Under the pieces are notes generated by a model that made no database searches, was not told the origin of the DNA, and was given only the letters and a program-made list of their open reading frames with translations. This document shows positions 4,059 to 54,647 of a DNA stretch of 64,000 bases, one piece after another. Position numbers and translations under genes: made by a program. Origin of the DNA: Candidatus Poribacteria bacterium (lineage in GTDB: Bacteria; Poribacteria; WGA-4E; WGA-3G); assembly GCA_965205025.1 (NCBI GenBank), contig CBDBFU010000004.1:12898-76897 (forward strand), written 5' to 3'. The first letter of the stretch is position 1. The number at the start of each line of letters is the position of its first letter.

Positions 4059-4274
4059 AAAATCAACTCTACCAAAGTTTCATTTTGACTTTTTTCTTGA
4101 AATAAGATATTATTCCAATAATTGTGTATTGTTGTGCGGACACCGAGCTGCTTTCCTATTTCCGTACCAATTGAAGAAGCACACCGATAAAGTTTATCAT
4201 CTGAAATAACTGTGAAGAATGGAAAATTGAATGGAAGGTCTTGTACCTACTACTCCCTCAATAAGGATGAAAAA

Positions 4275-5084
4275 ATGAAAAGTATAAATATCTTTTGCAT
4301 CATCTTAATCCTCGTAACATTGATGTTCATTCCACAAATTCAAGCAAAAATAGACCCTAAAGCCGCCGTTGGCATCTGGCTCTTTGACGAAGGTAAAGGA
4401 AAAACGGTCAGCGATCTATCAGGTAACAGCAATGATGGAGAAATTATGGGTAATCCCTCTTGGGAGAATGGCAAATTCGGAACTGCCCTACAGTTCGGTG
4501 AGCCATCTGATTGGGTTCAGGTCAAAGATCATCCGTCCTTACGGGTTTCCACAGCATACTCCGTTATGGCATGGGTACATGCTGAAAGATATTTCTTTCC
4601 CGGTACACAATGGCAAGGCATTATTGCGAAAGCAAATAATCCAAGATCCTTTAGTTTCTATACCGATACTTCCAAACGACCTTTAATCGCAATACATTTT
4701 GGGGGTGCACACATCGTCGCATTCGGTACTGAGTTCCCTCTCGAAGAGTGGACACATCTCGCTTTTGTTGTAGAATCAGGGAAGAATGGTGGGAAAATTA
4801 CTGCCTACACTAATGGAAAACTTGTAAAGGAAACACAGAGCGCTGCACTAAATGGACTTCCCGGTGATGGCGATACCAAAGATGTCGTTATTGGACGAAC
4901 ACATGAAGGTGCACGCTTTTTCGGGGGTATGATTGACGAAGTTGCCCTTTTCAATACAGCACTAACCGAAGATGACATGGCTGATATTGTAGAGGACGGA
5001 CTTTCACGGATACTCGGGATAACCCCTGTCGAACCAACACAGAAATTAACTACCACTTGGGCAACGCTCAAAACTCACGAGTAA
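4275..5084 (+). CDS. secreted LamG/concanavalin-A-like lectin domain protein (Laminin_G_3-type)
   Basis: AAGGA RBS 7 nt before ATG 4275. Signal peptide MKSINIFCIILILVTLMFIPQIQA. ...GKFGTALQFGEPSDWVQVKDHPSLRVSTAYSVMAWVHAE... fits the LamG_3 pattern (candidate-site/defect-site pairing with W-V at the edge strand). The ORF track start at 4212 is probably too far upstream. Confidence 0.7.
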   Translation: MKSINIFCIILILVTLMFIPQIQAKIDPKAAVGIWLFDEGKGKTVSDLSGNSNDGEIMGNPSWENGKFGTALQFGEPSDWVQVKDHPSLRVSTAYSVMAWVHAERYFFPGTQWQGIIAKANNPRSFSFYTDTSKRPLIAIHFGGAHIVAFGTEFPLEEWTHLAFVVESGKNGGKITAYTNGKLVKETQSAALNGLPGDGDTKDVVIGRTHEGARFFGGMIDEVALFNTALTEDDMADIVEDGLSRILGITPVEPTQKLTTTWATLKTHE

Positions 5085-5357: not shown

Positions 5358-7295
5358 ATGGTATTACTTGATAATACTATAAAAGATACCATCATGGAAA
5401 GCATACTTCGTTCTCTATTACTACTACTGTTAGTATCAAACATTGTCATCCCTTATGTATTCGCTGAATACGAACCAGGCACTCAACTCGCACTTCCAGA
5501 AGGTGCATTAGCACGGCTGGGCAAAGGACGGGTAGAGAAAATCGCTTTTTCTCCTGATGGAAATACACTTGCAGTTGCAAGTTCAATCGGTATTTGGCTA
5601 TACGATGTACGTACTTATAAAGAAGTCTTCCTCCTGACGGGACACACAGCGGATGTTGATTGTGTCTCCTTCAGTCGAGATGGTAAAACCCTCGCCAGTG
5701 GAAGTCAAGACGATACTGTTCGTTTATGGGATATCCCAACAAGAAAACATATTGCTACCCTGCAACATACAGGTATGGTTTTAAGTGTATCTTTTAGTCC
5801 TGATGGTGATTTACTGGCAACAGGATGTGGTTATATGATGACGGCTGATAGATCAACACCTTTACCCGATCAAGATACTGTTAGATTGTGGAATGTTCAT
5901 ACAAAGAAACATATTGCAACATTCAATGGACATTCTGACTATGTGGAAAGTGTGGTATTTAGTCCAAATGGTGAAATACTCGTTTCAGGCAGTTGGGATA
6001 AGACTATCCGGTTGTGGGATATTAAATCCGGGAAAAACATCGTTACACTCGAAAGACATACCGATTCTGTCCATTGTGTTAGATATAGTCCAAACGGTCA
6101 TTTCATTGCAAGTGCTGGGAGCCTGGAAGACAAAAATATCCTATTATGGAATGCAAAAACCGCACAACACATCAATACGCTGAAAGGACACACAAGCTTT
6201 ATCAGTAGTATCGCATTTACATCAGATGGGAAACTAATCGCAAGTGGGGGTGGTGATAATACCGTACGCGTATGGGATGCCAAAACTGGAAAGAAAAACA
6301 TCACTCTCACAGGACATACAGATTGGGTAATAAGTGTAGCATTCAGTCCAGATAACAACACGCTGGCAAGCGCAAGTCGAGATGGAACTATTCGACTATG
6401 GGATGCATCCACTATTAAAGGATATACTCAAAATATTTCTTGTGTAGCATTCAGTCCAGATAGTTCCACATTAGCAAGTACAGGTTGGGATAAAAAAATA
6501 CATCTATGGGATGTTAACACAGGAAAACATAAGAAAGTACTCACAGGTCATACAGATTCAGTCTCAAGGGTAGCATTCAATCCTATAAACAACACACTTG
6601 TAAGTAGCGGTAACGATAAGACACTACGACTCTGGGATATTACGACTGGTAAAACCATCAAAATACTCAAAGACAATACATTCCCTATAGCAATTAGTCC
6701 CGATGGCAAAATATTGGCATGTGGCAGTCCAGACAACACAATACATTTGTTGGATGCAAACACAACGAATCATAAGCATACACTCAAAGGACATACGGAC
6801 TTTGTCGATAGTGTGGCTTTCAATCCAGATGGTAACATAATTGCTACAGGTAGTTCGGACAATACTGTGAGGCTATGGAATACCAATACAGGGAAACAGA
6901 AGAGAGTATTAAATGCCAATATACCATCCTTCAATCATCTAATGTTTAGTCCAGATGGTAATACAATAGCAAGTAATAACTACAACAATTCAATACTCTT
7001 ATGGGATGTTTCTACAGGTAGTTTGAAGAAAACACTTAAACACAAGCAAAAAGCAAACGGATCTACAGATGGTGCCTTATCTGTTGGGTTCAGTCCTGAT
7101 GGTAAATTCTTAGTGTCTGGCAGTTATTCTGGCAAGGTTCATCTATGGGATATTAAAACTGGAGATTTTAAGAGAATACTCAATGGACATACAGGGAATG
7201 CCACTACTGTAGCAATTAGTCCAAATGGAAAATTCTTGGCTACTGGTAGTACAGACGGCACAATCCTCCTATTTGGTCAAGTATGGAAGGAATAA
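5358..7295 (+). CDS. WD40-repeat protein (>=12 WD repeats) with N-terminal signal/anchor segment
   Basis: Repeated GH-x-x-x-V-x-S-V-x-FSPDG-x-x-LASGS-x-D-x-T-(I/V)RLWD units. N-terminus LLLLLLVSNIVIPYVFA. Shares the N-terminal motif LPEGALARLGKGR with the paralog at 21293-23125. The start could instead be at ATG 5394. Confidence 0.85.
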   Translation: MVLLDNTIKDTIMESILRSLLLLLLVSNIVIPYVFAEYEPGTQLALPEGALARLGKGRVEKIAFSPDGNTLAVASSIGIWLYDVRTYKEVFLLTGHTADVDCVSFSRDGKTLASGSQDDTVRLWDIPTRKHIATLQHTGMVLSVSFSPDGDLLATGCGYMMTADRSTPLPDQDTVRLWNVHTKKHIATFNGHSDYVESVVFSPNGEILVSGSWDKTIRLWDIKSGKNIVTLERHTDSVHCVRYSPNGHFIASAGSLEDKNILLWNAKTAQHINTLKGHTSFISSIAFTSDGKLIASGGGDNTVRVWDAKTGKKNITLTGHTDWVISVAFSPDNNTLASASRDGTIRLWDASTIKGYTQNISCVAFSPDSSTLASTGWDKKIHLWDVNTGKHKKVLTGHTDSVSRVAFNPINNTLVSSGNDKTLRLWDITTGKTIKILKDNTFPIAISPDGKILACGSPDNTIHLLDANTTNHKHTLKGHTDFVDSVAFNPDGNIIATGSSDNTVRLWNTNTGKQKRVLNANIPSFNHLMFSPDGNTIASNNYNNSILLWDVSTGSLKKTLKHKQKANGSTDGALSVGFSPDGKFLVSGSYSGKVHLWDIKTGDFKRILNGHTGNATTVAISPNGKFLATGSTDGTILLFGQVWKE

Positions 7296-8550: not shown

Positions 8551-9654
8551 GTGAAAATCCGTTCCATAAAAGCCTATCAAGTTGACCTACCACTCCACGA
8601 AGGCAGCTATAAATGGTCAGGAGGTAAATCGGTCTCTGTTTTTGACAGTACAATTGTGTCCGTTGAAACAGATGAAGGTATTACAGGATACGGTGAAGTC
8701 TGTCCACTGGGACCATTCTATCTACCAGCCTACGCTAAAGGCACCAGAACCGGCATTGCCGAACTGGCTCCATATTTAATTGGAGAAGATCCAACCCAAC
8801 TCCTACCGTTAAATCAACGTATGGATGCTGCTCTTAAAGGACATCCTTATGTCAAAACCGGAATCGACATAGCATGTTGGGATATTCTTGGAAAAGTGTC
8901 AAATCAATCGGTGTGTACACTACTGGGAGGGAGGTATGGAGAAGACTTCATGCTCTACCGCGCAATCTCCCAACAATCTCCAGATGAGATGGCGGAGAAA
9001 GTCGCAACCTATCGTGCCGAAGGATACCGAAAATTCCAGTTGAAGGTCGGTGGAGATCCAAACACTGATATTGAACGCATTCATGCTGTCTCTGAATTGA
9101 TGGAACCGAGTGATGTGCTCATCGCTGATGCCAATACCGGTTGGCACATGCATCAGGCAGCTCGCGTGGTACGTGGTGTAAGTGATGTGGATGTTTACAT
9201 CGAACAACCATGCCTATCTTATGAAGAATGTCTCTCCATTCGGGAACGGACAGACCATCCTTTTGTCCTTGATGAGACTGTTGACAGCATCAATATGTTG
9301 CTACGCGGACATGCCGATAGGGCAATGGATGTTGTAAACATTAAGATCAGCAAATTTGGTGGTCTGACGAAAGCTAAGCTCGCAAGAGATCTATGTGTTG
9401 AACTGGGAATTGCAATGACGATAGAGGATAGTTGGGGTGGTGATATTACTACTGCAGCAATAGCGCACCTTGCACACAGCACACCAACGGAATTCCTATT
9501 CACTGCAACCGATTTCAATAGTTATGTCACTGTCAGCACAGCAGAAGGAGCACCACAACGGGTTAATGGTAGGATGGCAGCCTCTACACAACCGGGGTTG
9601 GGTATCATCCCAAAAATGGATGTGTTAGGCAAAGCGGTTGTTCATATAGAATAA
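8551..9654 (+). CDS. enolase-superfamily enzyme (mandelate racemase/muconate lactonizing enzyme family); hydroxyproline dehydratase/epimerase-type candidate
   Basis: GTG start. Capping domain then TIM barrel with metal ligands in IADANTGW / YIEQP / VLDETV. The KFQLKVGG strand matches the MR/MLE pattern. Confidence 0.8.
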
Positions 9655-9740
9655 TTTCTTATTTTCTCTTACCATCACCTATTAAATGTGGTACACTATT
9701 TACGATGTGAAAGTCAAGTGAAATAAGTATATCTAAGGAG

Positions 9741-10611
9741 ATGCCGAAAATGACTTACATTTGGAGAAAAGAATATAAAGACCACAGCAGAAGCCTTGAT
9801 AAATTCTACACGAAACAGGAAGTCGTCAAAAGGTGTTTAGATGAAATAACTAAATTACCTTACATATATGATTGTGTGATAGAACCGTCTGCGGGGGATG
9901 GTGCGTTCTATAAGAATATCGAACATGACACTAAGATAGGTATTGATATTGAACCGCAACATGATGACATTATCAAAGGTGACTGGTTCAATTACAAAAT
10001 TAGCAACCAATACGAGCGCGTATTGGTTATTGGGAATCCGCCATTTGGTCAATATCAGAAACTCTCTTCAAAATTTATATCCCACGCTATCTCATTTCGT
10101 AATGTCCAAACAATTGCTTTTATTTTACCAGATGTTTATAGAAAACATACCCGGCAAAAAATATTGCCCAATAATTGGAGAATAGTCTCTATCACTGAAT
10201 TAGGAAGGGACTGTTTTACATTAAAAGGAAAAGCATATCATGTACCTGCAAGTTTTTTTATTTTTGATAAATCAGAGGGAAAAGATCTAAGAGTTAATCC
10301 TAATGCCTACACAGAAACGAATGATTTTAAATTCTCCAATAAAGACGACTTTGACATATTTGTATTTGGTGCTTCTCCAAAAAAGATTACAAAAACGCCG
10401 ACAACAAATAATAGAGGCTACTTCCTTAAGTCAAAAAATTCCAGTCGAAGATTTGATATCTAAGATCAAAGCAGTTGATTGGAATGGAAATTCTTGTGCA
10501 AACGGCGGTGTATATTGGTTAACAAAATTTGAATTTTTGGAACAATATATAAAATGCCATGAACCAGATAGAACTGAAGAAAGCCAATGGAGTTTGTTTG
10601 ATCTCCTTTAA
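9741..10611 (+). pseudogene. TaqI-like (gamma-class) N6-adenine DNA methyltransferase, disrupted by a +1 frameshift in an A6 run (10434-10439)
   Basis: Motif X-like DKFYTKQEVVKRCLD, motif I IEPSAGDGAF, motif IV VIGNPPFG (NPPF). Frame 1 stops at 10463. The +1 frame continues from the A6 tract as KIPVEDLISKIKAVDWNGNSCANGGVYWLTKFEFLEQYIKCHEP... to 10611. Lower GC than the flanks. Confidence 0.55.
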
Positions 10612-10659
10612 CTCAAATGTGTCAAGAAAAGACTACCTACATCTTTACCATAAAATGCC

Positions 10660-11238
10660 ATGAACCAGATAGAACTAAATAAAACACTAAGTTTCATCTT
10701 AGACAACATAGATGAAAGTAGAAAAGTGCTGAATAGCGTAGTAAGTATTCGGAAGAAATTAATTGATTTAACCATTGAAGAACAAGTTATTTCTGAACAA
10801 GACTTCTACAAAATTAGTAGCGTTTTGTCCACACAATCAAGGAGTCCATTGTGGGAAAATTATTTCATAAAAAAGCACCATTGTGAAAGAGTTAATAAAA
10901 GTGAGGATAGAGGGGATTGTAAAAAGAACGGCAGATACTATGAGTATAAAAGTTCTGGTTACAATCAAGAAAATGCTGTTCATATTCTTCAAATTAGACC
11001 GTGGCAGGATTGCGATTACATTATTCAGTCAATCTCCGATGATGGGGCAACTACATTTGTTTTAACCCATGCAGAAATGATGTTAGAAATGAATAGACTT
11101 AAAGCCACTCCCGCACATGGAACTCGAAAAGCATTAGAAGATAACAAAACTATAGAATACATGATGATGCTAAAAAGAAATTCTGCGGGTTGGGATAGGT
11201 GGATTAACAACTATCCCAAAGAGGGTGATATTTTTTAA
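10660..11238 (+). CDS. hypothetical protein (192 aa), candidate partner (restriction/other) of the adjacent methyltransferase
   Basis: ATG within the second copy of a 26-bp direct repeat. No recognisable family; a possible D...D-C-K motif (SEDRGDCKK) is not decisive. AT-rich like the MTase. Confidence 0.45.
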   Translation: MNQIELNKTLSFILDNIDESRKVLNSVVSIRKKLIDLTIEEQVISEQDFYKISSVLSTQSRSPLWENYFIKKHHCERVNKSEDRGDCKKNGRYYEYKSSGYNQENAVHILQIRPWQDCDYIIQSISDDGATTFVLTHAEMMLEMNRLKATPAHGTRKALEDNKTIEYMMMLKRNSAGWDRWINNYPKEGDIF

Positions 11239-11282
11239 TGTTCTACGTCTTTATCGATTGACGAAGGAGACACTGCACAGAC

Positions 11283-12257
11283 ATGATCATTAAGAAAATT
11301 AGAATCCTTACTGCTAAGGATGTCCGAGCAGCCCTCCCTATGTCCAAAGCAATTGACGCAATGCGGCATGCATATGGGCAACTTTCCGCAGGTACAGCAA
11401 TAGCACCACCAAGACAGCATATTACTTCCGATAAAGGTGTCACACTTATCATGCCGGCTTACCTACCCAAACGAAGTGAATTCGGCATAAAAGTTGTATC
11501 CGTCTATGACGAAAACCCAGATATAAACCTACCACGTATCACTGCCACCGTATTAGTACTTGATCCCTATACAGGAGCACCAAAAGCATTTATGGATGGC
11601 ACAAGTCTTACAGCTATTCGAACAGGTGCAGGTGGTGGGTTAGCTGCAGATTTACTTGCACGGAAGAATTCAAAAACGGTTGGACTCTTTGGGGCGGGTG
11701 TTCAAGCAAGAGCACAGTTACAAGCGGTCATGGCAGTCAGAAAAATAGAATGTGTAAATCTCATCAGTCGCACCCAAATATCTGCAGAGAATATTGCTAC
11801 TGAAATCTCTAATTGGACAGATGCCCCAAAAGTGAATCTTGCTACCTCTCCACAAGAAGTAGTAGAAAACGCAGATATTGTTATCTGCGCAACGACATCC
11901 GCAACCCCGCTTTTTGATGGGAACGACATAAAAACTGGTACACATATCACAGCCGTAGGAACATTTGCACCAGAAAAACGTGAAGTGGACACAGAAACCG
12001 TTACACGTGCAAATCGAATCGTCGTGGATTCACGAGAAGCATGTCTTGAGGAAGCAGGAGATCTGATAATTCCAAACGCTCAGATTGACACAGAAATAGG
12101 TGAAATCGTTAACGGAGACAAACAAGGACGGCAGTCAGAAGATGAAATCACTTTCTTTAAATCGGTTGGGGTGGCAGTACAAGATGCAGTCGCAGCATCA
12201 GCTGTCCTGAAAGAAGCAGAAACTGAAGGATTGGGAACTGTTATTGAAATGACATAG
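11283..12257 (+). CDS. ornithine cyclodeaminase/mu-crystallin family protein (candidate Delta1-pyrroline-2-carboxylate reductase or OCD)
   Basis: Family pattern: ...LTAIRTGAGGGLAADLLARKNSKTVGLFGAGVQARAQLQAV... (Rossmann GxGxxA). 324 aa. Confidence 0.85.
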   Translation: MIIKKIRILTAKDVRAALPMSKAIDAMRHAYGQLSAGTAIAPPRQHITSDKGVTLIMPAYLPKRSEFGIKVVSVYDENPDINLPRITATVLVLDPYTGAPKAFMDGTSLTAIRTGAGGGLAADLLARKNSKTVGLFGAGVQARAQLQAVMAVRKIECVNLISRTQISAENIATEISNWTDAPKVNLATSPQEVVENADIVICATTSATPLFDGNDIKTGTHITAVGTFAPEKREVDTETVTRANRIVVDSREACLEEAGDLIIPNAQIDTEIGEIVNGDKQGRQSEDEITFFKSVGVAVQDAVAASAVLKEAETEGLGTVIEMT

Positions 12258-20963: not shown

Positions 20964-21292
20964 TGTCAATTCTACAGGACACTATCCTTCCCATCCAGAT
21001 TTACCGTTGTTTTTCCATGCCCATATAATCTTCACTTGGTAGATCAGGTCACCTATTATATGCAATACACGCATCTGGTGTTGAATTAATAGAAACCGAA
21101 CCTTTATAGAACAGGTTTGAGGTAAAATATTATCTTTATACTCTTACATTTTGACAACAATTACTTTCTGATTATTGCCAATTTTCCTTATCAATTATAC
21201 GATTTTATCACAAACCTATTTGATAATATTGATATTGACAAATGGAGACATGATCCTTGATTTCATTACATTCTTTAGACTCAAGTACAGCT

Positions 21293-23125
21293 ATGCAAGA
21301 TTACACACAATGGAATCTACCCACAGGTGTGAAAGCCCGTCTGGGGAAGGGTAGGATAAGTGATGTATTAAATCCATCTGAAATAGCATACTCTCCCGAT
21401 GGACAGTGTTTTGCTGTAGCAAGTGCCAATGGTATTTGGATATACGACGCACAGACGGCTAAAGAACTTAACCTCCTAACAGGACATACATCTGATAACA
21501 CAACCGTATCTTTCAGTCCAGATGGGGTTATCTTGGCAAGTGCGAGTGGGGACAATACCATCCGTTTGTGGGAAATTCAAACTGGAGCACATGTCGGAAC
21601 ATTGAAAGAGCATACATCTCGTATTAATAACATCGCATACAGTCCGAGTGGCTTATTATTAGCAAGTGCAGGTGATGACAATACAATTCGTCTGTGGGAT
21701 GTGCAAACACATGATATGATTCGGACACTCAGAGGTCATACAGACAGGGTTACCAATGTTGTATTCAACCCAGACGAATCTATCTTGGTTAGCGCAAGTT
21801 GGGACAATAACATATGTCTTTGGGATGTGCATTCTGGCACCTTGCTTCAAACACTCACAGGGCATACATCTACTGTCAGTAGAGTATCGATCTGTGCAGA
21901 TGGAAAAACACTTGCAAGTTCAAGTTGGGACAAAACTGTGCGTTTGTGGGATATGCAAAAAGCAATGCATATACATACTCTTATAGGACATACGGGGAGG
22001 GTTACCAACGTTCTATTTAGCCCAAATGGTGAATTACTTGCAACCACTGCGATGGATCATGATACAGATTTACGCTTGTGGGACATGCTGACAGGTGGTA
22101 CACCTCTTAAGATACTAAAAGGACATACGAGAAAAGTTACAAGTCTTGTGTTTAGTCCGGATGGGTCTACTTTGGTAACTGGAAGTGGGGACTGCACTGT
22201 CCGTCTGTGGGATGTGGCAAGTGGTACATCACGTCAGATAATTACAGACCATACCTTTCGTGTCGCAAGTATCGCCTACAGTCCGGATGGATCAATGTTA
22301 GCTAGTTCTGGATGGGATGAAACTATACCTATATGGAACACGTATACCGATGAATTACTTCATCGACTTAAAGGACATAAGGCTGATGTCGTAGACCTTG
22401 CGTTTAGTCCTGATGGAAAGACAATCGCAACTTCAAGTTGGGATAGAACAGCACGTTTATGGGATGTGAAGACAGGTACATCTTTACACATACTGACAGA
22501 GCATCGTGACTTTGTCAATTGTGTAATTTTCAGTCCTGATGGCAAGACCCTTGCCACTGGGTGTGCTGGGAGTGCTGACAATGATGTGCGTTTGTGGGAT
22601 GTAGCGAAGGGAAAACTCATATTGACATTGACAGATCATACGCGGAGTATCAATAGCGTAGCGTTCAGTCCTGATGGCAAGACTCTTGTGAGTTCAAGTG
22701 ATGACAGGACAGTCCGTTTTTGGGATGTAGAAACTGGAGCACATATTCGAGTACTTAATGAGCATACGAAATCTGTTTATAGTGTTGCATTCAGTCCTGA
22801 TGGAAAGATACTTGCAAGTTCGAGTGACGACAGGACAATACATTTATGGAATATACAGACTGAAACATATTCACACCGTCTCACAGGACATACCGATGGT
22901 GTAAGGTGCGTTATATTCAGTCCAGATGGAAAAACACTCGCAAGTGGGAGTAGAGACAATGATGTGCGTTTATGGGATACTCAAACAGGTAAACACCTAA
23001 AGACATTGCAGGGTCATACAGGACTGGTTTATACAGTTGTATTCAGTCCAGATGGAAAAACACTCGCAAGCGGGAGTCGTGACGGCAGCTTGCTGTTTTG
23101 GGACCTTGATTCACAAAACCAGTAG
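21293..23125 (+). CDS. WD40-repeat protein (second paralog, ~13 repeats)
   Basis: Repeated GHT-x-x-V-x-S-V-x-FSPDGK-x-LASxS-x-D-x-TVRLWD units. N-terminal LPTGVKARLGKGRISD as in 5358-7295. The ORF track start 21257 is TTG; the first ATG is 21293. Confidence 0.85.
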   Translation: MQDYTQWNLPTGVKARLGKGRISDVLNPSEIAYSPDGQCFAVASANGIWIYDAQTAKELNLLTGHTSDNTTVSFSPDGVILASASGDNTIRLWEIQTGAHVGTLKEHTSRINNIAYSPSGLLLASAGDDNTIRLWDVQTHDMIRTLRGHTDRVTNVVFNPDESILVSASWDNNICLWDVHSGTLLQTLTGHTSTVSRVSICADGKTLASSSWDKTVRLWDMQKAMHIHTLIGHTGRVTNVLFSPNGELLATTAMDHDTDLRLWDMLTGGTPLKILKGHTRKVTSLVFSPDGSTLVTGSGDCTVRLWDVASGTSRQIITDHTFRVASIAYSPDGSMLASSGWDETIPIWNTYTDELLHRLKGHKADVVDLAFSPDGKTIATSSWDRTARLWDVKTGTSLHILTEHRDFVNCVIFSPDGKTLATGCAGSADNDVRLWDVAKGKLILTLTDHTRSINSVAFSPDGKTLVSSSDDRTVRFWDVETGAHIRVLNEHTKSVYSVAFSPDGKILASSSDDRTIHLWNIQTETYSHRLTGHTDGVRCVIFSPDGKTLASGSRDNDVRLWDTQTGKHLKTLQGHTGLVYTVVFSPDGKTLASGSRDGSLLFWDLDSQNQ

Positions 23126-23305: not shown

Positions 23306-24346
23306 ATGGCAAAGAAAAAAAGCAGATCTGTTAACGTCGCTCGCAAACGAGAAAAACGGAATAGGGACCGAAAATCAAAGAGCAAGAAAATAGCTGCTGA
23401 AAAACACCATAAATTACCTTTAGAGAGGATGGATGAGGAACGTTTACATTCATATCTATTGAAAAGTTATGATCTGCTTGATGAACCAGAAATTCAAAAG
23501 CTCCATTTTGATCTGGATATGGTAGAAATCGAATTATTAGATTTAATCAGGAAAACAGAACATCAAGGTTCAAATGCGGAAGAAGATGCAGCATTAGTAT
23601 TTCAAACGTTTGAAGTCTATGAAACAGATATCTTATCTCGGTTAATTACCACACAATTCAGAAAACAACTGCTGTGGTCGTTAAATGCATGTGAAAATAG
23701 GTTAAAAAAGTATGGCAAACATGAACGAGCTGAAGTCGCATACGTAGCACGGGCTTTATTTGAAATAGTGCCAGCAGATGTTATGGCAGGACATCCAATC
23801 ATACAATGCATCGGTAAACAGAGCATACAACTACTTGTTGAAGATAGAATTAATTCTGATGATTTGTCTCCAGTGAGTGATTATCTACCAGAAGTACAGG
23901 AAATTGATTATTCTGAATTTCAACAGAATGAATCGTTTCAAAGCCTGTTTTCTGATGCAATATCAAAAAAGTCAAACGATATTGAAGAAAACCAACAGGA
24001 ATCGATCGTTAACATACCATCCTTAGTTCAAGAGCAAGAGAGTGAATTATATCCAGAAACTCTACCAGCGAAGGCTTTATACAAGAATTTTGATGGATTA
24101 AAAATCAGAGATAGTCTAATTAATTGGAAGGGACAATTCCTTGAAAAAGAAACTGAAACTCAACTTGATTTTATCAATAGGGATTGCGAGTTATATATAA
24201 CAGTTACTGAGAATCGATTACAGTTACATGCTGAGAGTGAAGAAAAACTAAATACAGCTATGGCAAATTTAGAGATGCACTGCCAATCGGCGGTGATGTA
24301 TCTTGCTAAGACTTTTGATGAAGGAGGTGAAACCGATGCCACGTAG
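23306..24346 (+). CDS. hypothetical protein with K/R-rich N-terminus
   Basis: ATG 23306 MAKKKSRSVNVARKREKRNRDRKSKSKK... No family recognised. Confidence 0.5.
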   Translation: MAKKKSRSVNVARKREKRNRDRKSKSKKIAAEKHHKLPLERMDEERLHSYLLKSYDLLDEPEIQKLHFDLDMVEIELLDLIRKTEHQGSNAEEDAALVFQTFEVYETDILSRLITTQFRKQLLWSLNACENRLKKYGKHERAEVAYVARALFEIVPADVMAGHPIIQCIGKQSIQLLVEDRINSDDLSPVSDYLPEVQEIDYSEFQQNESFQSLFSDAISKKSNDIEENQQESIVNIPSLVQEQESELYPETLPAKALYKNFDGLKIRDSLINWKGQFLEKETETQLDFINRDCELYITVTENRLQLHAESEEKLNTAMANLEMHCQSAVMYLAKTFDEGGETDAT

Positions 24347-24449
24347 TAAAAGCGGACAGGTTAGACGCAGAACACAAATTCGACAACGTCAATTACGACG
24401 AAAAAAAAGAAAAAAAGCCCAACTTAAAGAACTTTTAGCAAATAAGTAG
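24336..24449 (+). CDS. small highly basic peptide (37 aa)
   Basis: Strong SD AAGGAGGTGA 7 nt upstream of ATG 24336. Overlaps the stop of the upstream ORF out of frame. MPRSKSGQVRRRTQIRQRQLRRKKRKKAQLKELLANK. Confidence 0.4.
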   Translation: MPRSKSGQVRRRTQIRQRQLRRKKRKKAQLKELLANK

Positions 24450-24717
24450 TAAGATTTCATTAATTCATAACGGGTAAACATTGATATCTTCTATTAATAG
24501 TATTCGGGAAAATTACCTATATATCATTTACAAGAATATCTACGGTTTGATATCCGCTGGACAGGAGTTATTCTATTCTGAATAAATGACTTGTTTTTTG
24601 TACACTAATAAACCTTAGATTCATCCAATAAAATAGAAAACATTACAAGAATAATTTGACATTCAATCTATTGTGATATTATAATTACTTCTATAAATTA
24701 AGACCAGCAATATCCAT

Positions 24718-24736
24718 GATATTGAGATACAATATC
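24718..24736. promoter_or_regulatory. Fur-box-like 19-bp palindrome ~100 bp upstream of the OM beta-barrel gene
   Basis: GATATTGAGATACAATATC is a perfect 7-5-7 palindrome with the same architecture as the two GATAATGAGATTCATTATC sites at 31589 and 36345. Confidence 0.35.
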
Positions 24737-24833
24737 ACAACAGATTAAATCTACAAGAAAATTATGTTGAATCAGTCAAAGTAAATATATTTGATATTGT
24801 GTCTCATTATCATATTTTCTTCTGAGATATATT

Positions 24834-26045
24834 ATGAAGTTATTTCGTGTTCTAATATTGATATGGACCTGCTTATACATTACTATCACTGCCAATGCTG
24901 ATGAAAAACCATTTTCTGTATCTGGTTATGGTGTAATAAACTACTCACATTTTAATTGGGACCTTGATCCAGATAGACGGGCTGCATTGGATTTAGAAAG
25001 ATTGGTTGTTGCCCCAAAATACCGCATTAACAACACTATTCGTCTTGAAGCTGAGCTTGAATTTGAACACGGTGGTACTGGTAGTACGATGGAATTTGAT
25101 AAATTTGAGGAATTTGGTGAATTTGAGTTTGAAATAGAAAAAGGTGGGGAAGTTATTGTTGAAAAACTTGCAGCGGTTTTCTCAATAAAACCTTCTTATA
25201 ACTTCCGTATCGGACATATCATCGTCCCTATAGGACTTGTGTCTAAACGTCATCGACCACAACACTATTTTACAACAACCCGTCCAGAAGCCGAAACACA
25301 CATCATTCCGACAATTTGGCACGAAACTGGAGTTGAAGTTTTTGGTTCATTTGGTCCAGTAAGTTACCAAGCACAAATTGTCAATGGATTAGACTCTACT
25401 GGATTTAGTTCAAGGTACTGGATTGTGCGAGGACATCAATTACGATTTGAAACTGTAAATGCTGAAACCCCTGCTTATGTTGGAAGACTCGATTATAACT
25501 TCCAGAAGAATGGAACCATCGGTGTCTCAGGTTATTATGGAGATACCGCTGCAAATCGACCTAAACCTGATGTTGACTTCAATGCAAACGTCGGGATTAT
25601 AGGTCTGCATGGTTTTTATGAGGAAAATGCAATTATACTACGTGGATTGTTCCTAATGGGAACTTTGGAAAATGCACATCTACTTTCAAAAGTCAATCGG
25701 ACATTATCCAATAATCTGAATGTTAAACGCACACCAATAGGTAGTTCAGCAATAGGATGGTATATTGAAGCAGGTTATGATGTCCTCTCTTTCTTAAAGA
25801 AAAATAAAGAAACACACCAAAGACTTGAGGTTTTTGGACGGTACGATTATTACGATACTATGGCAAGTGTGGAAGGCGTTATTTTTGATAATCCCCGATG
25901 GGAACGAAGAACTTGGACAATGGGTTTAAACTACCATGTCCACCCGCAATTAGTTTTCAAGAGTCATTATTCTTTACGAAGGTTAGCTACCAAGGAGAAA
26001 AACAAAGAAGATACATTTTCACTTGGTTTCGGTTTTCAATATTAA
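24834..26045 (+). CDS. outer-membrane beta-barrel (porin-like) protein
   Basis: Signal peptide MKLFRVLILIWTCLYITITANA. Alternating amphipathic beta strands. C-terminal ...FSLGFGFQY (terminal aromatic). Confidence 0.55.
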   Translation: MKLFRVLILIWTCLYITITANADEKPFSVSGYGVINYSHFNWDLDPDRRAALDLERLVVAPKYRINNTIRLEAELEFEHGGTGSTMEFDKFEEFGEFEFEIEKGGEVIVEKLAAVFSIKPSYNFRIGHIIVPIGLVSKRHRPQHYFTTTRPEAETHIIPTIWHETGVEVFGSFGPVSYQAQIVNGLDSTGFSSRYWIVRGHQLRFETVNAETPAYVGRLDYNFQKNGTIGVSGYYGDTAANRPKPDVDFNANVGIIGLHGFYEENAIILRGLFLMGTLENAHLLSKVNRTLSNNLNVKRTPIGSSAIGWYIEAGYDVLSFLKKNKETHQRLEVFGRYDYYDTMASVEGVIFDNPRWERRTWTMGLNYHVHPQLVFKSHYSLRRLATKEKNKEDTFSLGFGFQY

Positions 26046-49345: not shown

Positions 49346-50290
49346 AACTGTCTTAATATGATACTCTTTAGTAAAACGAAAGAGAGTAAAATGAAAAAGT
49401 TACACTTTTCGTTACATGGTGTAACTTTGTAATATTGCTCTAATCCCTGTGGTGGACTGGGTTTATTGTAATTATCTTGAAATTTTAGAATTTTGAGTTT
49501 TGTGTCATTTTCTGGTTTTTCTGAATTTTCTGAGCACTGAAGCCATTCGCTATTTTTTCTATGTCTAATTGTATTTTTATGAATATTTTGGATTGTCATT
49601 TTTCATCTTCCTATTTATTGCTCTATGCTCTATCTTCTTTCTGTAGATGTGAATAACGATTCATATTTATGAGATACACCATAGTTTTATTTTCATAACA
49701 CAATTTTTAGATGCAAGATTTCAAACTGGTTTAAAATCAGTCCCAGAAAGGGTTTATAGATAATCCTGAAAATTGCGTTATTTTTATTTTTTTTTTAATA
49801 TTTTCATACTATGCACTTGTTTAAACTACTCTAAACCTTGTTCTGGTATGGGTTTGTAGGCATATCAGATTTTAATTTTACTTGCATAACTGTTATGCAA
49901 GTTTCATAACAACAATTTAGCTATGCTTTTACTGTGATATGTATAGTAACATAATAAGATGTATGTGTGAAGACAAAAATTATATATTGTGATATATTTA
50001 ATTATTTTATTTACTATTGTCATTTTGAAATTATGGATATTTCTATAATATTATATCTTTAGTTGTGTTATGGTTTGGTTTTCTTCAATAATTCTTCAAT
50101 TATTATTGGTTATTATATTTTTTGTTTTATTTCTCTATGTGTTATGTCATTAATTCTGAATTATGGATGGTGGGTTGTGTATGATGAATGGGAGGGTGGA
50201 AGGATGGAAGAGGAGAGGGATGTTTTGTTTTTTTGATTCTATAAATGTCTATTCCATGAATTGTTGTTATACATGTCTTTAAAATATACT

Positions 50291-50352
50291 GCCCACACTG
50301 GAAGTTTATGCTACATAAAAGAACTGCCCACACTGGAAGTTTATGCTACATG
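50291..50352. repeat. two tandem copies of a 29-bp direct repeat
   Basis: ACTGCCCACACTGGAAGTTTATGCTACAT x2 with a 4-bp spacer. Related GGAAGTTTATGCTCCAT at 5195-5211 sits next to the other MITE copy. Confidence 0.5.
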
Positions 50353-50605: not shown

Positions 50606-53600
50606 ATGAGAAAAGTATTATCAGACTATATAAAAACACAGGAAGATTTCGAACGATTCTGTAATTTGTTCTTGAAAAAGGAAATATCTCCCCTTGTAAA
50701 GGTTTACAACACATCAGGACCTGATGGGGGTATTGATGCGGAATACTGTGGGACATACGCCGGGAAAAATGGTCGTTGGGTGTTTCAGTGCAAATTCCGT
50801 AACTTACCAAATACAGAGAAAACGCGACGCAACATCATTTCTGTTATGAAAGGTGACAAGAGAAGAAAAGACAAAAGAGGGGAGTTAGACAAAGCAAATG
50901 AATCGAAATGTGATCATTATATCCTAATAACCAACGTCTCGCTGACTTCAGGGAACATTGGTGAAATCAAGGGTATTCAAAGTCAGAAAGGCTATACTTT
51001 TTCATTAGACGTTTGGGATGCTGAAGACCTGATTACAATGATCGATGAATTTCCCTACATACTAAATTCATTCCGAGATCCGCATCTACCTGTATTCCTT
51101 TCTTATGAAGACATGTTCCGCGATCAAATCAAAGGCGACCATAGACTCTTGAGGTACGACTACGATACCTTTGGACGAGAGGAGGAGATTGACCAATTTA
51201 GATCCTTTGTCCAAGACACTGACAAAAGATTGTTCGTTATGTCTGGGAGTGGCGGCATCGGCAAAACTAAACTTGCAATTGAATTCGCAAAAATGGTCGA
51301 ACAAGAACACCATGACTATGAACCCTTATTTGTTCAAATTGCCGAAGATAGTTTTGAAAATGCGTTGGCAGATATTCCACCAAATAGAAAGTACATCTTC
51401 TTTGTAGATGACGCGCATGACTATATAGACAACCTTGGCGGTATTAAAATATTGCTTAAAAGTTCTGGATATAGTGAATCGAAAGCAGTCCTTATAACAC
51501 GAAAGCCGTTTAAAGCATCTTTGAGAGGGATTTTCTTATCTGCGTTACCAGAACAAGCCATTCACGAAATGGAAATTCCAAGACTATCGTTTGAGAAAAC
51601 CAAAGATTTTATCAATTCACATATACATATCCAAGACAGTGTCCGTTTGAATGACTTGGCAAAAATTGGAAAAGATACACCTTTAATTACTGTAATGGTG
51701 ATAGATCTATTCAATAAAGGAAATGATCTTAGTAAATTAACAGAAGATAAATCGATAGAACGTGTTTTTGAATCCTATATAAATGACATATTTAGTAAAC
51801 ACCTTCGTAAATATGACAAACAACACAGAACATTACTTAACTGGTTCAGTGGAATCGAACCAGTAGACATTGAAGATAACAGAACACTCGAAAAATTGGC
51901 TGAACTCTTAAAACTGGAAATCTATGAGATAGAAAGATACCGTGATGATCTTATAGGATCCGGTTTACTTGTTCAGTATGGAAGGAAGTCAAGGGTTTTC
52001 CCTGGTCCACTCAGCGATTATATTTTACGGAATGCATGTTTTTTATCCGATAGGAATACTTCCTCTTTTCACAAGTCATTGTTAGAAGAGTTTCTACCGA
52101 TCTGCCCTATCAATGTTGTTAAAAACTTAGCACGGGTAGAAATCACAGCTGGTAAAACAGAACTTCTTGACGAGTACGTAAATAAGCTTCAATTACTGGC
52201 ACAATCAGGTGATAACGCTGATCGGATGCTTATTCTACTTCAAATGGAAGGCATCTGTTATTTTCGACCAGATGATGCAATTGAGATCTTTAATATCATC
52301 CTGGATAATCCGCATTCTGAAGCCACTGAAGTGGTGGACAAGTTTTGGGGGAAATTCACGGTGACACATCAAGCGTTAGTAGAAAAGATAGCGAATGAAG
52401 CACAAAAGACTGTTTACACGCTTTCAGGATTCCGCGGAACGTTAAATGTTATTCGAAAACTTTTCCAGGCGGATAACCTGGATTCCCCTAATGTTCGTAG
52501 ACCAGAATGGTTACTAAGGGATATAGTCCGTTTCCGAAATGGTAAATCCTTTGTATTTCAAGAGGAAACTCTTGAAGCATTTGAGATGTGGAAAAATGAA
52601 GATATACCAAAGCTCAGTATAGCACTGCTCAACGCACTTGATTCTTTACTTGTAATGGATTTTCAAGAAACTGTCAGTGAAGGATTTACATTGAAGATTT
52701 CTTGGCACTCATTAAAATACACTCCAGCATTAATCCAGATTAGAGAGCGTTCTATCAATCTCATAGCAGATTGTATGAAAGTAACTCAGTATACTAAAGT
52801 TAAATTGAAAGCGATAGATTGTATTAATAAAGCTCTAAGACCGTTTGAGGGTCCTCGTAGGAACCCTGATTTGATGGATGAAGAAGAACAATTATTTCTA
52901 CAAGCAGAGCAAGAACGGCTTTTTCAAATACTTACCAATCAATTATCAGAAGAATCTGATTTCAATATCCTCAATGCCATAGATGAGTGTTTACATGTAT
53001 ACACGGAAAATCCACCCGGCTACTTAAAACAACGTGCTACACAATTGTTAGAAAAATTTGAGAAACAAGATAACTATAATCACTATCTTTTTTATAGGCA
53101 ATTTACTGGAAAATATCGACAGTGGACAACCCCAGAAGAAAAAACAAAAATTCGTTGAAAAGTATATAGAAGAATATCCAGCTAAACGTCTTGCAGAATT
53201 AATGAGTGCATTCCTGGGCTCAAGTGTGTACGAAACGAATACTTTGGCAGTAACTGAACATCTATGGACTATTGGTAAACTTAACCCAGTTTATGGATCT
53301 GAATTGTTAGATTATATTCTTTCTTTGCAGACTGATGTAAAAGATTACGCAGCAGGGTTACTTGGTGGTATTCGTTATTCCAATAACGATAAGGCATTAA
53401 AAATAGAACACCAATTATTGAAACAAGACAATATATCTGTCAAAAGAATCGTTGTAAAGAGTTTTTTATGGGTCATGGAAGGACAATCTTTAGATAAAGA
53501 TAATCTGCAAATTTTACTTCAATTGGTAGATATACCAGATGAAGGCTTAAATTCAGACATTGTTAAAACTCTACCTAATTTCTATAACGTGGACGTAGAA

Positions 53601-54450: not shown

Positions 54451-54647
54451 ACCTAACGCACGAACAAGACCTCCTTGACGAAATTGACAACCTTAATTCA
54501 CAAAACCAAATTCAAAATTCTGTCGGTTTACCCCCACAAGAAGTTAAATCAAAAATTGAGAGACTAATTAAAACGACCCAACAGCGGATTAACGCCACAG
54601 AATTACATCTGAACTTAATAAAAAAAATAGATTCAGAAATCAGTTAA
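54444..54647 (+). CDS. small hypothetical protein (67 aa), start overlaps preceding stop (ATGGTAA)
   Basis: Translational-coupling-type overlap. No homology recognised. Confidence 0.3.
   Translation: MVNLTHEQDLLDEIDNLNSQNQIQNSVGLPPQEVKSKIERLIKTTQQRINATELHLNLIKKIDSEIS

What the first reader, a model, noticed from the sequence alone, without database searches (positions are those of the whole stretch)
9655..11282. AT-rich 1.6-kb islet carrying a TaqI-like N6-adenine methyltransferase and a partner ORF, bounded by a 26-bp direct repeat
The segment is visibly AT-richer (~35% GC) than the flanking metabolic genes (~47%). The MTase has clear motifs I and IV (EPSAGDGAF, GNPPFG). The 26-bp sequence TAAAATGCCATGAACCAGATAGAACT occurs twice, at 10550-10575 and 10651-10676. 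The second copy provides the ATG of the 192-aa downstream gene. The first copy lies in the MTase tail and starts a 34-codon abortive ORF (MNQIELKKANG...), i.e. the 5' end of the downstream gene is duplicated. The arrangement suggests a horizontally acquired, partly decayed small R-M-like module.
Basis: partly seen in the sequence, partly recalled or inferred. Interest (0 to 1): 0.55.

Follow-up and report, generated by a model that had tools for sequence, protein, structure and literature searches.

The report
Mobile restriction-modification cassette, methylase gene frameshifted
This is an ordinary two-gene bacterial DNA-defence cassette (a DNA methylase plus a DNA-cutting enzyme) that hops between sponge-symbiont genomes and has landed between two proline-metabolism genes. 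In this genome the methylase gene is broken by one extra base, and the 27-base repeat is an old duplication of the spot where the two genes once overlapped.

Summary
The islet 9655-11282 is 34.2% GC against 46% and 44% in its flanks. The methylase motifs are real. An exact 27-bp direct repeat lies at 10549-10575 and 10650-10676. A 34-codon ORF starts in copy 1.

The run at 10433-10438 is A6, where a 97%-identical relative has A5. This cuts off the most conserved C-terminal part of the protein.

The two genes form a Type II restriction-modification cassette: a gamma-class N6-adenine methyltransferase followed by a 192-aa PD-(D/E)xK nuclease with a PvuII/NhoI-like predicted fold. The pair stays adjacent in 36 of the 38 related loci that hold DNA upstream of the nuclease gene. 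Most of the 47 loci found are Candidatus Poribacteria; others are Latescibacterota, Rhodothermales and Arenicellales.

The cassette sits in many genomic contexts. Two empty sites have the flanking genes 4 to about 13 nt apart. Cassette synonymous divergence is 2 to 7 times lower than that of its flanks, so it is mobile.

More distant relatives have overlapping genes, with the nuclease ATG inside the methylase tail. In the Poribacteria-type cassette about 34 nt of that junction is duplicated. The 34-codon ORF is not conserved.

This is a new member of a known kind, of modest interest. The recognition sequence is unknown.

The parts
8551..9654 (+). Left flank: cis-3-hydroxy-L-proline dehydratase gene (enolase superfamily). 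It is not part of the cassette.
   Evidence: NCBIfam NF043002 scores 627.6 bits against a cut-off of 500. Pfam finds MR_MLE_N and MR_MLE_C. In L004 and L049 this gene lies directly next to the OCD-family gene, which marks the empty site.
9655..9749 (+). Cassette leader. It carries the Shine-Dalgarno sequence AAGGAG at 9735-9740. A weak promoter-like site is possible: TTACCA at 9669-9674, a 17-nt spacer, then TGgTACACT at 9689-9697.
   Evidence: Cassette homology in unrelated contexts starts at about 9734, and at 9677 in L017 and L021. 'ctctaaaggag' is conserved upstream of the ATG in most loci. The promoter is my reading of the sequence; the consensus scan did not list it.
9750..10463 (+). Methyltransferase gene, 5' part, ending at the premature TAA at 10461-10463. 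It holds motif I (EPSAGDGAF) and motif IV (GNPPFG). The annotated ORF starts at 9741.
   Evidence: ORF list. PADLOC MTase_II PDLC03255 at E 1e-35. Invariant motif residues in 43 homologues. Rossmann methyltransferase model with pLDDT 87.4, with M.BseCI and M.TaqI among the structural matches.
10433..10438 (+). Frameshift site: an A6 run where intact relatives have A5 (TCA AAA ATT = S-K-I).
   Evidence: Alignment with L001, which is 97% identical and encodes an intact 286-aa methyltransferase. This is the only coding frameshift in 7.4 kb compared between the two.
10439..10611 (+). Methyltransferase gene, 3' part, now in the +1 frame. It encodes IPVEDL...DWNGNSCANGGVYWLTKFEFLEQY plus the tail IKCHEPDRTEESQWSLFDLL, and ends at the TAA at 10609-10611.
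   Evidence: Frame-corrected translation of 289 aa. The C-terminal block is the best conserved part of the family: W247, G249, S251, A253, G255, G256, W259, L260, E264 and Y269 are invariant.
10549..10582 (+). Repeat copy 1: 27 nt exact and 34 nt at 94%. It is the ancestral start region of the nuclease gene, now coding for I-K-C-H-E-P-D-R-T-E-E in the methyltransferase frame.
   Evidence: Repeat finder. In more distant loci the nuclease ATG sits exactly here, 10 nt after the Q-Y codons. Variation across 25 loci is concentrated at third positions of the methyltransferase frame: 36, 30 and 96 changes at positions 1, 2 and 3.
10559..10663 (+). Incidental 34-codon ORF. It starts at the ATG in copy 1, and its TGA overlaps the nuclease ATG as ATGA.
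   Evidence: ORF list. It is not conserved. The copy-1 ATG is absent from 14 of 32 loci with the duplicated junction (ACG in its place). The ORF stops early or runs in frame into the nuclease gene in others. Variation falls on its second codon positions.
10650..10683 (+). Repeat copy 2, which supplies the present start of the nuclease gene.
10660..11238 (+). Restriction endonuclease gene (192 aa), a PD-(D/E)xK nuclease with G85-D86 ... E95-x-K97. It is intact.
   Evidence: More than 200 homologues at 71-94% identity. The family holds 500 clusters at 50% identity. G85, K97, Q111 and H153 are invariant, and D86, E95 and R113 are at least 90% conserved, over 110 distant members. The model has pLDDT 84.6. 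Top structural matches are NhoI, the Eco15I N-terminal domain, PvuII, NaeI and DpnI. dN/dS is 0.13-0.27.
11239..11282 (+). Spacer before the right-flank gene. It contains one copy of a 21-nt unit (TCTTTATCGATTGACGAAGGA, 11248-11268) that is present three times in L001.
   Evidence: Alignment with L001.
11283..12257 (+). Right flank: ornithine cyclodeaminase/mu-crystallin family gene, probably a pyrroline-2-carboxylate reductase and so the pathway partner of the left flank. It is not part of the cassette.
   Evidence: Pfam PF02423 at E 6e-74. NCBIfam matches are all below their cut-offs. The pathway assignment is inferred.

Best explanation
Window positions ~9734-11239 (or 9677-11239) hold a self-contained Type II restriction-modification cassette.

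**Components**
- A gamma-class N6-adenine DNA methyltransferase, about 286 aa when intact, comes first.
- A small PD-(D/E)xK restriction endonuclease of 192 aa follows on the same strand.
- The methyltransferase would protect the host's own sites. The nuclease would cut unmethylated incoming DNA at the same sites. The recognition sequence is not known.

**Mobility**
- The cassette circulates horizontally among bacteria, mostly Candidatus Poribacteria.
- In this lineage it was inserted into the very short spacer between two co-oriented hydroxyproline-pathway genes.

**The repeat**
- In the older arrangement the nuclease ATG lies inside the last codons of the methyltransferase gene.
- In the ancestor of the Poribacteria-type cassette about 34 nt around that ATG became duplicated, 72 or about 101 nt apart.
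- Copy 1 stayed as methyltransferase tail coding sequence. Copy 2 became the nuclease start. The two genes therefore no longer overlap.
- The 27-bp identity in this window is what remains of that event. Both copies are held by coding constraints, and occasional gene conversion may have helped.

**The frameshift**
- In this genome one extra A (A5 to A6 at 10433-10438) truncates the methyltransferase before its most conserved C-terminal block.
- As sequenced, the cassette is therefore a decaying module whose nuclease gene is still intact.

**What is shown and what is inferred**
- Shown: gene identities by motif and fold, adjacency, mobility, the junction history and the frameshift.
- Inferred: the enzymatic activities, the loss of methyltransferase function, and how the cell tolerates the intact nuclease gene.
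- Possible reasons for that tolerance are weak translation after loss of upstream coupling (there is no Shine-Dalgarno sequence before 10660), another methyltransferase of the same specificity elsewhere in the genome, or a very recent mutation.
For: **Methyltransferase**
- PADLOC MTase_II at E 1e-35.
- Motif I and NPPF motif IV are invariant in 43 homologues.
- The Rossmann model matches M.BseCI, M.TaqI and CamA.

**Nuclease**
- GD...ExK is conserved across 110 members that share only 24-46% identity with the window protein.
- The predicted fold is closest to NhoI (probability 0.99, TM 0.44/0.51), Eco15I-N, PvuII, NaeI, DpnI, Hjc and RecU.

**Linkage**
- The methyltransferase gene lies directly upstream on the same strand in 36 of the 38 genome loci that hold DNA upstream of the nuclease gene. 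These span Poribacteria, Arenicellales, Rhodothermales and other Gammaproteobacteria. The exceptions are L034 (a 25-codon remnant only) and L044 (the gene is split by an insert).
- Both genes are under purifying selection, with dN/dS of 0.08-0.27.

**Mobility**
- DNA homology in other contexts ends within about 10 nt of the two ORFs.
- Neighbours differ between genomes.
- In L004 and L049 the two flanking genes are 4 to about 13 nt apart with no cassette between them.
- Synonymous divergence of window versus L001 is 0.043 (methyltransferase) and 0.129 (nuclease) against 0.26-0.31 in the flanks. For window versus L028 it is 0.80-0.97 against 1.5-3.0.
- In 14 loci the cassette sits next to a MjaI-like restriction-modification pair.

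**Junction**
- In six more distant loci the nuclease ATG is 10 nt after the Q-Y codons and the ORFs overlap.
- In all 32 Poribacteria-type loci whose junction could be read it is 82-111 nt after them, with the old start retained in the tail.
- The tail evolves as coding sequence in the methyltransferase frame.

**Frameshift**
- A6 in the window against A5 in L001.
- The region lost includes ten invariant residues.
- The window otherwise has long intact ORFs, up to 1194 codons.
Against: - No enzymatic or methylome data exist for any member, and the recognition site could not be inferred.
- The nuclease has no Pfam, NCBIfam, PADLOC or PHROG family and no PDB sequence match. The structural match is moderate, with E 7.6e-3 and TM about 0.45-0.5.
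- An intact nuclease gene beside a broken methyltransferase gene is the combination expected to be lethal for a classical system. Either the frameshift is an assembly error or some compensation exists that I could not see.
- The frameshift is seen in one contig only.
- No mobility gene, terminal repeat or target duplication explains how the cassette moves.
Confidence: 0.8

Rival explanations
1. The cassette is fully functional here. Under this reading the extra A at 10433-10438 is an assembly or consensus error in a homopolymer, or a minority allele, and the cell makes the normal 286-aa methyltransferase.
For: - Loss of the methyltransferase with the nuclease intact should be lethal for a classical system.
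- The nuclease shows no deviant residue at conserved positions.
- The change is a single base in a homopolymer and is seen in a single public contig.
- L001, at 97% identity, is intact.
Against: - A6 is a short run.
- It is the only coding frameshift in 7.4 kb compared with L001.
- The window has many long uninterrupted ORFs, so the assembly is not error-prone.
- Decay of this cassette is common elsewhere, as in L032, L046, L043, L048 and L044. L034 keeps an intact nuclease gene beside only a 25-codon methyltransferase remnant.
Confidence: 0.25
2. The 27-bp repeat is a working regulatory device rather than a relic. One version has the copy-1 short ORF (10559-10663, ATGA overlap) deliver ribosomes to the nuclease start, setting nuclease expression. 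Another has recombination between the repeats delete 101 bp and switch the cassette back to the overlapping arrangement.
For: - In the window, L001, L002, L021 and L043 the short ORF ends exactly on the nuclease ATG.
- The nuclease start has no Shine-Dalgarno sequence.
- In loci with the ~101-nt spacing the two copies are slightly more alike within a genome than between genomes: 27.5 against 26.9 of 34 nt, permutation p 0.004 without phylogenetic correction.
- L002 carries the same T-to-C change in both copies.
- Deleting one repeat plus the spacer would give MTase ...HEPDRTK* overlapping the nuclease start, as in the more distant relatives.
Against: - The copy-1 ATG is lost in 14 of 32 loci with the duplicated junction.
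- The short ORF ends early in L004, L017, L019, L020, L027 and L032, and runs in frame into the nuclease gene in loci with the 72-nt spacing.
- Variation falls on its second codon positions, so it is not selected as an ORF.
- Loci with the 72-nt spacing show no excess similarity within genomes.
- The RNA of 10530-10700 is less structured than shuffled sequence, z +1.8.
- No compact variant was seen among the 32 Poribacteria-type loci whose junction could be read.
Confidence: 0.08
3. The 192-aa protein is not a classical methylation-blocked restriction enzyme. Under this reading it is a methylation-dependent or otherwise non-toxic PD-(D/E)xK nuclease, and the pair is not a standard restriction-modification system.
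For: - The best structural matches, NhoI and Eco15I-N, are nucleases solved bound to methylated target DNA.
- The gene is intact here beside a broken methyltransferase gene, and in L034 beside a deleted one.
- It matches no known REase family model.
Against: - A methyl-dependent nuclease encoded in an overlapping operon with a methyltransferase would attack its own host.
- Tight methyltransferase-then-nuclease linkage across several phyla, and frequent nuclease-only decay with the methyltransferase kept (L032, L046, L043), are the classical pattern.
- PvuII, NaeI and DpnI-type folds also appear among the matches, and fold does not determine methyl-dependence.
Confidence: 0.06
4. The two genes are old, vertically inherited residents of the hydroxyproline operon rather than an acquired element.
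For: The same HypD-methyltransferase-nuclease-OCD arrangement occurs in L001, L028, L032, L046 and, with extra DNA, L041.
Against: - Most loci have other neighbours.
- Empty sites exist.
- Cassette synonymous divergence is 2- to 7-fold lower than in the flanks of the same genome pairs.
- Related cassettes occur in other phyla.
Confidence: 0.03

Closest known systems
Classical two-gene Type IIP restriction-modification systems with a small PD-(D/E)xK nuclease, such as PvuII
   Same: - One amino-methyltransferase and one small nuclease (under 200 aa) with a GD...ExK active-site signature and an alpha-beta-beta-beta-alpha-beta core.
- PvuII is among the structural matches.
- The genes are adjacent, co-inherited and mobile.
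   Different: - No detectable sequence similarity to PvuII or any catalogued REase family.
- No controller (C) protein gene.
- The order is methyltransferase then nuclease on one strand, overlapping in the older arrangement.
- The methyltransferase is an NPPF adenine enzyme, whereas M.PvuII is an N4-cytosine enzyme (from my own knowledge).
- Specificity is unknown.
NhoI / Eco15I N-terminal domain (PDB 8rpx, 8q5n, 8q5o)
   Same: These are the best structural matches to the predicted nuclease: probability 0.96-0.99, TM 0.40-0.51, over about 150-170 aligned columns.
   Different: - Only 12-18% identity, with E-values of 0.008-0.1.
- Those entries are nucleases solved bound to methylated target DNA.
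- The protein here is always encoded with a methyltransferase, which argues for the opposite dependence.
Gamma-class N6-adenine DNA methyltransferases M.TaqI and M.BseCI
   Same: - The motif order is the same: FxGxG-type motif I, then NPPF/Y motif IV, then a C-terminal recognition region.
- The catalytic domain superposes on them (7qw7, 2adm, 1aqj; 18-20% identity).
   Different: - The profile-to-PDB sequence match is not significant (E 0.07) and covers motifs I-IV only.
- There is no Pfam hit.
- The protein is about 140 residues shorter than M.TaqI.
- Its conserved C-terminal block DW.GNSCANGGVYWLTK.EF..QY has no counterpart in the matches.
[quoted passage not shown] 2016, PMC4760077; Takahashi et al. 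2011, PMC3031569) and their enrichment in sponge symbionts (Slaby et al. 2017, PMC5649159)
   Same: - A bare restriction-modification unit is found in different chromosomal contexts and interrupts an operon.
- It is younger than its flanks.
- It clusters with another restriction-modification pair, and its hosts are mostly a sponge-symbiont candidate phylum (my own knowledge).
   Different: No IS element, long target duplication or other signature of the published movement modes was found at this site.

Membership tests
Type II restriction-modification system | A DNA methyltransferase with a SAM-binding motif I and a catalytic (D/N)PP(Y/F) motif IV | tested here: met
   EPSAGDGAF and GNPPFG are invariant in 43 homologues. 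PADLOC MTase_II at E 1e-35. Rossmann methyltransferase fold.
Type II restriction-modification system | A separate endonuclease with a recognised nuclease active site | tested here: met
   G85-D86...E95-x-K97 is conserved over 110 distant members. The predicted fold matches PD-(D/E)xK restriction enzymes. The match strength is moderate.
Type II restriction-modification system | The two genes are adjacent and inherited together | tested here: met
   The methyltransferase gene is directly upstream of the nuclease gene on the same strand in 36 of the 38 loci that hold upstream DNA, across several phyla.
Type II restriction-modification system | Site-specific cleavage that is blocked by the cognate methylation | not testable with these tools
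   No biochemical or methylome data are available. Palindrome depletion did not single out a site.
Type II restriction-modification system | Both genes are intact in this genome, so the system is functional | tested here: not met
   The methyltransferase gene carries a +1 insertion (A6 at 10433-10438) that removes the conserved C-terminal 57 residues. An assembly error is not excluded.
TaqI-like (gamma-class) N6-adenine methyltransferases | Motif I precedes motif IV, with the target-recognition domain at the C-terminus | tested here: met
   Motif I lies at residues 48-56 and motif IV at 98-103. The C-terminal 130 residues lie outside the catalytic-domain matches.
TaqI-like (gamma-class) N6-adenine methyltransferases | Significant sequence similarity to M.TaqI or to its Pfam families | tested here: not met
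   No Pfam family at E 0.1 or below. The profile against the M.TaqI sequence gives E 0.07. Only the fold of the catalytic domain matches.
PD-(D/E)xK nuclease superfamily | An alpha-beta-beta-beta-alpha-beta core with D at the start of one strand and (D/E)xK in the next | tested here: met
   In the model, helix 58-72 is followed by strands 87-89, 92-99 and 106-112. D86 precedes the first strand, and E95 and K97 lie in the second. Structural matches are NhoI, PvuII, NaeI, Hjc and RecU.

The most novel reading that the evidence does not exclude
This reading holds that the nuclease can be kept without its methyltransferase, as in this window's frameshift and the L034 deletion. The junction duplication would have changed how the nuclease is translated. 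The near-identical 27-34-nt repeats would then act as a reversible switch, through short-ORF coupling or a 101-bp deletion and re-duplication, that tunes or silences restriction. On this reading the cassette is a self-regulating restriction-modification unit of a kind not yet described, built around a nuclease family absent from current catalogues.
Probability: 0.07. Interest if true: 0.55.

Novelty: new member of a known kind. Interest (0 to 1): 0.27.

Why it matters
- **An uncatalogued nuclease family.** This restriction-nuclease family has at least 500 clusters at 50% identity. It has no Pfam, NCBIfam or PADLOC model and always comes with its methyltransferase. It is a ready candidate for a new specificity and for annotation in sponge-symbiont genomes, where defence genes are known to be enriched (PMC5649159).
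- **A clean example of cassette behaviour.** A bare 1.5-kb restriction-modification cassette moves between genomes and phyla and splits a metabolic operon.
- **How overlapping genes become separated.** Duplication of the overlap region separated the two genes here.
- **No change to current understanding.** None of this alters how these systems are thought to work.

Tried and rejected
- **Sequence searches for the nuclease.** Pfam, NCBIfam, PHROGs, PADLOC and PDB sequence searches found nothing, whether run with the single sequence or with profiles of 33 and 110 members.
- **Plasmid collection.** The nuclease has no match. The methyltransferase has only distant matches to its N-terminal domain.
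- **Exact look-up of the window's truncated methyltransferase.** It was not on record, so no independent contig could confirm the frameshift.
- **Recognition site from palindrome depletion.** In 358 kb of Poribacteria DNA, CTAG has an observed/expected ratio of 0.05, which fits the neighbouring MjaI-like systems. GGCC is at 0.28, and TCGA and GATC at 0.61. CATATG and GATATC are low. Nothing can be assigned to this cassette.
- **A tandem duplication longer than 34 nt.** The spacer after copy 1 shows no similarity to the nuclease 5' coding region (mean z -0.09).
- **RNA structure around the nuclease start.** None was found (z +1.8).
- **Rfam and tRNA scans of the window.** Both were empty.
- **Promoter and terminator scan.** Counts were no better than in shuffled sequence.
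- **Terminal repeats or target duplication at the insertion site.** None was seen.
- **Metagenome scan with the OCD-family protein for more empty sites.** Only one additional informative locus, L049, was found.
Full report
**1. What is in the sequence**

The segment 9655-11282 lies between two co-oriented genes.

- On the left is a cis-3-hydroxy-L-proline dehydratase gene (8551-9654). It matches NCBIfam NF043002 at 627.6 bits against a cut-off of 500.
- On the right is an ornithine cyclodeaminase/mu-crystallin family gene (11283-12257). It matches PF02423 at E 6e-74.

By established biochemistry the dehydratase product, pyrroline-2-carboxylate, is reduced by enzymes of the second family. The islet therefore splits a likely operon; this is an inference.

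The islet holds three ORFs:

- ORF 9741-10463 (240 aa), with EPSAGDGAF and GNPPFG.
- ORF 10303-10611 in the +1 frame.
- ORF 10660-11238 (192 aa).

The direct repeat is exact over 27 nt (10549-10575 and 10650-10676) and 94% identical over 34 nt. The 34-codon ORF 10559-10663 starts in copy 1. Its TGA overlaps the ATG of the 192-aa gene.

GC content is 34.2% in the islet, against 46.0% and 44.2% in the flanks. The window mean is 37.9%. The islet is only at the 10th percentile of equal-sized windows.

**2. The methyltransferase is frameshifted**

ORFs 9741-10463 and 10303-10611 are two halves of one gene. Removing one A from the A6 run at 10433-10438 gives a 289-aa protein. Its full length matches hundreds of 270-296-aa homologues.

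A contig that is 97% identical over the islet (L001) has the same gene order, A5 at this site and an intact 286-aa gene.

The frameshift removes the block DW.GNSCANGGVYWLTK.EF..QY. This is the most conserved part of the family and contains ten invariant residues.

Several results bear on whether the frameshift is real:

- It is the only coding frameshift in 7.4 kb shared with L001.
- The window has uninterrupted ORFs of up to 1194 codons, so the assembly is not noisy.
- The allele is seen in one public contig only, so an error cannot be excluded.

The likely true start is the ATG at 9750. It lies 9 nt after AAGGAG, and homologues begin MTHIWRK.

**3. What the two proteins are**

*Methyltransferase.* It has no Pfam or NCBIfam hit. 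It matches PADLOC Type II methyltransferase models at E 1e-35 and PHROG 5172. Its model (pLDDT 87.4) is a Rossmann methyltransferase. The DNA-methyltransferase matches are M.BseCI, M.TaqI and CamA, at 14-20% identity over the catalytic domain only. A profile search against PDB sequences finds M.TaqI only at E 0.07, over motifs I-IV. It is therefore a gamma-class NPPF adenine methyltransferase. 'TaqI-like' holds at that level and no closer.

*The 192-aa protein.* It has no family in any library searched and no PDB sequence match. It does have:

- more than 200 homologues at 71-94% identity;
- a wider family of 500 clusters at 50% identity;
- G85, K97, Q111 and H153 invariant, and D86, E95 and R113 at least 90% conserved, across 110 members that share only 24-46% identity with it. 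This is a GD...ExK signature.

Its model (pLDDT 84.6) places D86 before one strand and E95-x-K97 in the next. The best PDB matches are restriction enzymes and relatives of the PD-(D/E)xK class: NhoI (probability 0.99), the Eco15I N-terminal domain, PvuII, NaeI, DpnI, Hjc and RecU. The window copy has no unusual residue at conserved positions.

**4. Linkage and mobility**

A scan of one genome per species found 47 loci. Most are Candidatus Poribacteria MAGs. Latescibacterota, Arenicellales, Rhodothermales and another gammaproteobacterium carry copies whose nuclease is about 50% identical. Some of these come from the same binning projects as Poribacteria MAGs.

The methyltransferase gene lies directly upstream on the same strand in 36 of the 38 loci that hold DNA upstream of the nuclease gene.

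DNA homology to the window in other contexts runs only from about 9734 to 11239. In a few loci it starts at 9677. The neighbours differ:

- The cassette sits between the same two proline-pathway genes only in L001, L028, L032, L046 and, with extra DNA, L041.
- In L004 it sits upstream of the dehydratase gene, and the two pathway genes are 4 nt apart.
- L049 has them about 13 nt apart with no cassette between them.
- In 14 loci it abuts a MjaI-like restriction-modification pair (PF01555 plus PF09568), on either side.

Synonymous divergence of the cassette is far lower than that of its flanks in the same genome pairs:

| Genome pair | Cassette genes | Flanking genes |
|---|---|---|
| Window vs L001 | 0.043 (methyltransferase), 0.129 (nuclease) | 0.26-0.31 |
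| Window vs L028 | 0.80-0.97 | 1.5-3.0 |

Both cassette genes are under purifying selection, with dN/dS of 0.08-0.27.

The surrounding window is ordinary chromosome: WD40-repeat proteins, Laminin_G_3, GH3 and DUF4159, with no mobility genes. How the cassette moves is not shown.

**5. The repeat explained**

In six more distant loci the nuclease ATG lies 10 nt after the conserved Q-Y codons of the methyltransferase. These loci are L034, L035, L037, L038, L040 and L042. The ATG sits inside cATGAAcc, which reads H-E-P in the methyltransferase frame. Where the methyltransferase gene is intact, the two ORFs overlap.

All 32 Poribacteria-type loci whose junction could be read keep that sequence in the methyltransferase tail (IKCHEP(D/N)RTEE...). 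In them the nuclease starts at a second copy, either 72 nt (17 loci) or about 95-101 nt (15 loci, including the window) downstream. Only about 34 nt is detectably duplicated. The spacer is not similar to the nuclease 5' coding region.

Across 25 loci the tail varies mainly at third positions of the methyltransferase frame: 36, 30 and 96 changes at positions 1, 2 and 3. It is therefore selected as methyltransferase coding sequence. In the frame of the short ORF the changes fall on second positions.

The short ORF is incidental:

- The copy-1 ATG is missing in 14 of 32 loci.
- Where it is present, the ORF stops early, ends on the nuclease ATG, or reads in frame into the nuclease gene, depending on the locus.

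The exact 27-nt identity here, shared with L001 and L002, is the upper end of a range of 17-32 matches out of 34. There is a weak hint of concerted evolution:

- L002 has the same T-to-C change in both copies.
- Loci with the longer spacing have a permutation p of 0.004, not corrected for phylogeny.

The RNA around the start is unstructured.

**6. State of the cassette here and elsewhere**

Decay is frequent:

- nuclease frameshifts in L032 and L046;
- a 162-nt nuclease deletion in L043;
- remnants only in L048;
- a methyltransferase gene split by about 1.9 kb in L044;
- an intact nuclease gene beside only a 25-codon methyltransferase remnant in L034.

The window is unusual in pairing a broken methyltransferase gene with an intact nuclease gene. 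The possible reasons are all inferences:

- a very recent mutation;
- an assembly error;
- another protecting methyltransferase elsewhere in the genome;
- low nuclease translation. The start at 10660 has no Shine-Dalgarno sequence. The frameshift makes upstream translation stop about 200 nt before it, instead of 48 nt.

**7. Comparison and verdict**

This is a Type II restriction-modification cassette. Its methyltransferase belongs to a catalogued Type II group. Its nuclease belongs to a sizeable but uncatalogued PD-(D/E)xK family.

It behaves as the literature describes for restriction-modification units as mobile elements (PMC4760077, PMC3031569). It also fits the reported enrichment of such systems in sponge symbionts (PMC5649159).

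It is a new member of a known kind, of modest interest. The recognition sequence is unknown. Palindrome statistics show extreme CTAG depletion (observed/expected 0.05), which fits the MjaI-like neighbours, but nothing can be assigned to this cassette.

Noticed in passing
window 11248-11268; L001 about 6595-6657: A 21-nt unit (TCTTTGCCGATTGACGAAGGG) lies just upstream of the OCD-family gene. It is present once in the window and three times in tandem in the 97%-identical relative L001. Copy number therefore varies in the leader of the right-flank gene.
   Followed up: partly
L004 1319-3073; L006 4606-6374; also L005, L008, L011, L016, L018, L021, L024, L026, L030: A second restriction-modification pair lies directly next to the cassette in 14 Poribacteria loci, upstream in some and downstream in others. 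It consists of a 383-aa PF01555 methyltransferase and a 193-aa PF09568 MjaI-type nuclease. The 64-kb window has none.
   Followed up: partly
whole window plus Poribacteria loci (358 kb): CTAG is almost absent, with an observed/expected ratio of 0.05 (0.04 in the window alone). GGCC is at 0.28. CATATG (0.26) and GATATC (0.47) are also depleted. This fits heavy restriction pressure in these genomes.
   Followed up: partly
L034 3952-6696: In a Latescibacterota genome the nuclease gene is intact, but only about 25 codons of the methyltransferase gene remain, directly after gatB. A 690-aa ORF with a DPPY methyltransferase motif follows. This is a second case of the nuclease kept without its usual partner.
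   Followed up: partly
L044 1246-3972; L041 3878-6411: In L044 (Rhodothermales) the methyltransferase gene is split by about 1.9 kb of inserted DNA. In L041 the methyltransferase-nuclease junction is replaced by unrelated sequence, and 1.8 kb separates the nuclease gene from the OCD-family gene. Neither insert was identified.
   Followed up: no
window 4212-5084, 5358-7295, 21257-23125: There are two large WD40-repeat proteins (645 and 622 aa) and a Laminin_G_3 protein. These are eukaryote-like repeat proteins of the kind often reported in sponge symbionts. The WD40 genes contain three of the window's seven exact repeats of 20 nt or more.
   Followed up: no
window 3313/3736, 50288/50323, 59018/60493: Three other exact direct repeats of 20-29 nt are present. 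One is a near-tandem pair 35 nt apart at 50288-50351. None was examined.
   Followed up: no
window 24343-25892 and 53155-55615: Two stretches of 1.5 and 2.5 kb have no stop-free run of 120 codons or more on either strand, in an otherwise densely coding window. No Rfam family or tRNA was found there.
   Followed up: no
window 9750-10611 compared with L001: Between the window and L001 the methyltransferase gene has synonymous divergence of 0.043. The nuclease gene is at 0.129 and the flanking genes at 0.26-0.31. Nuclease differences cluster in its 3' third. This suggests a recombination boundary inside the cassette.
   Followed up: partly
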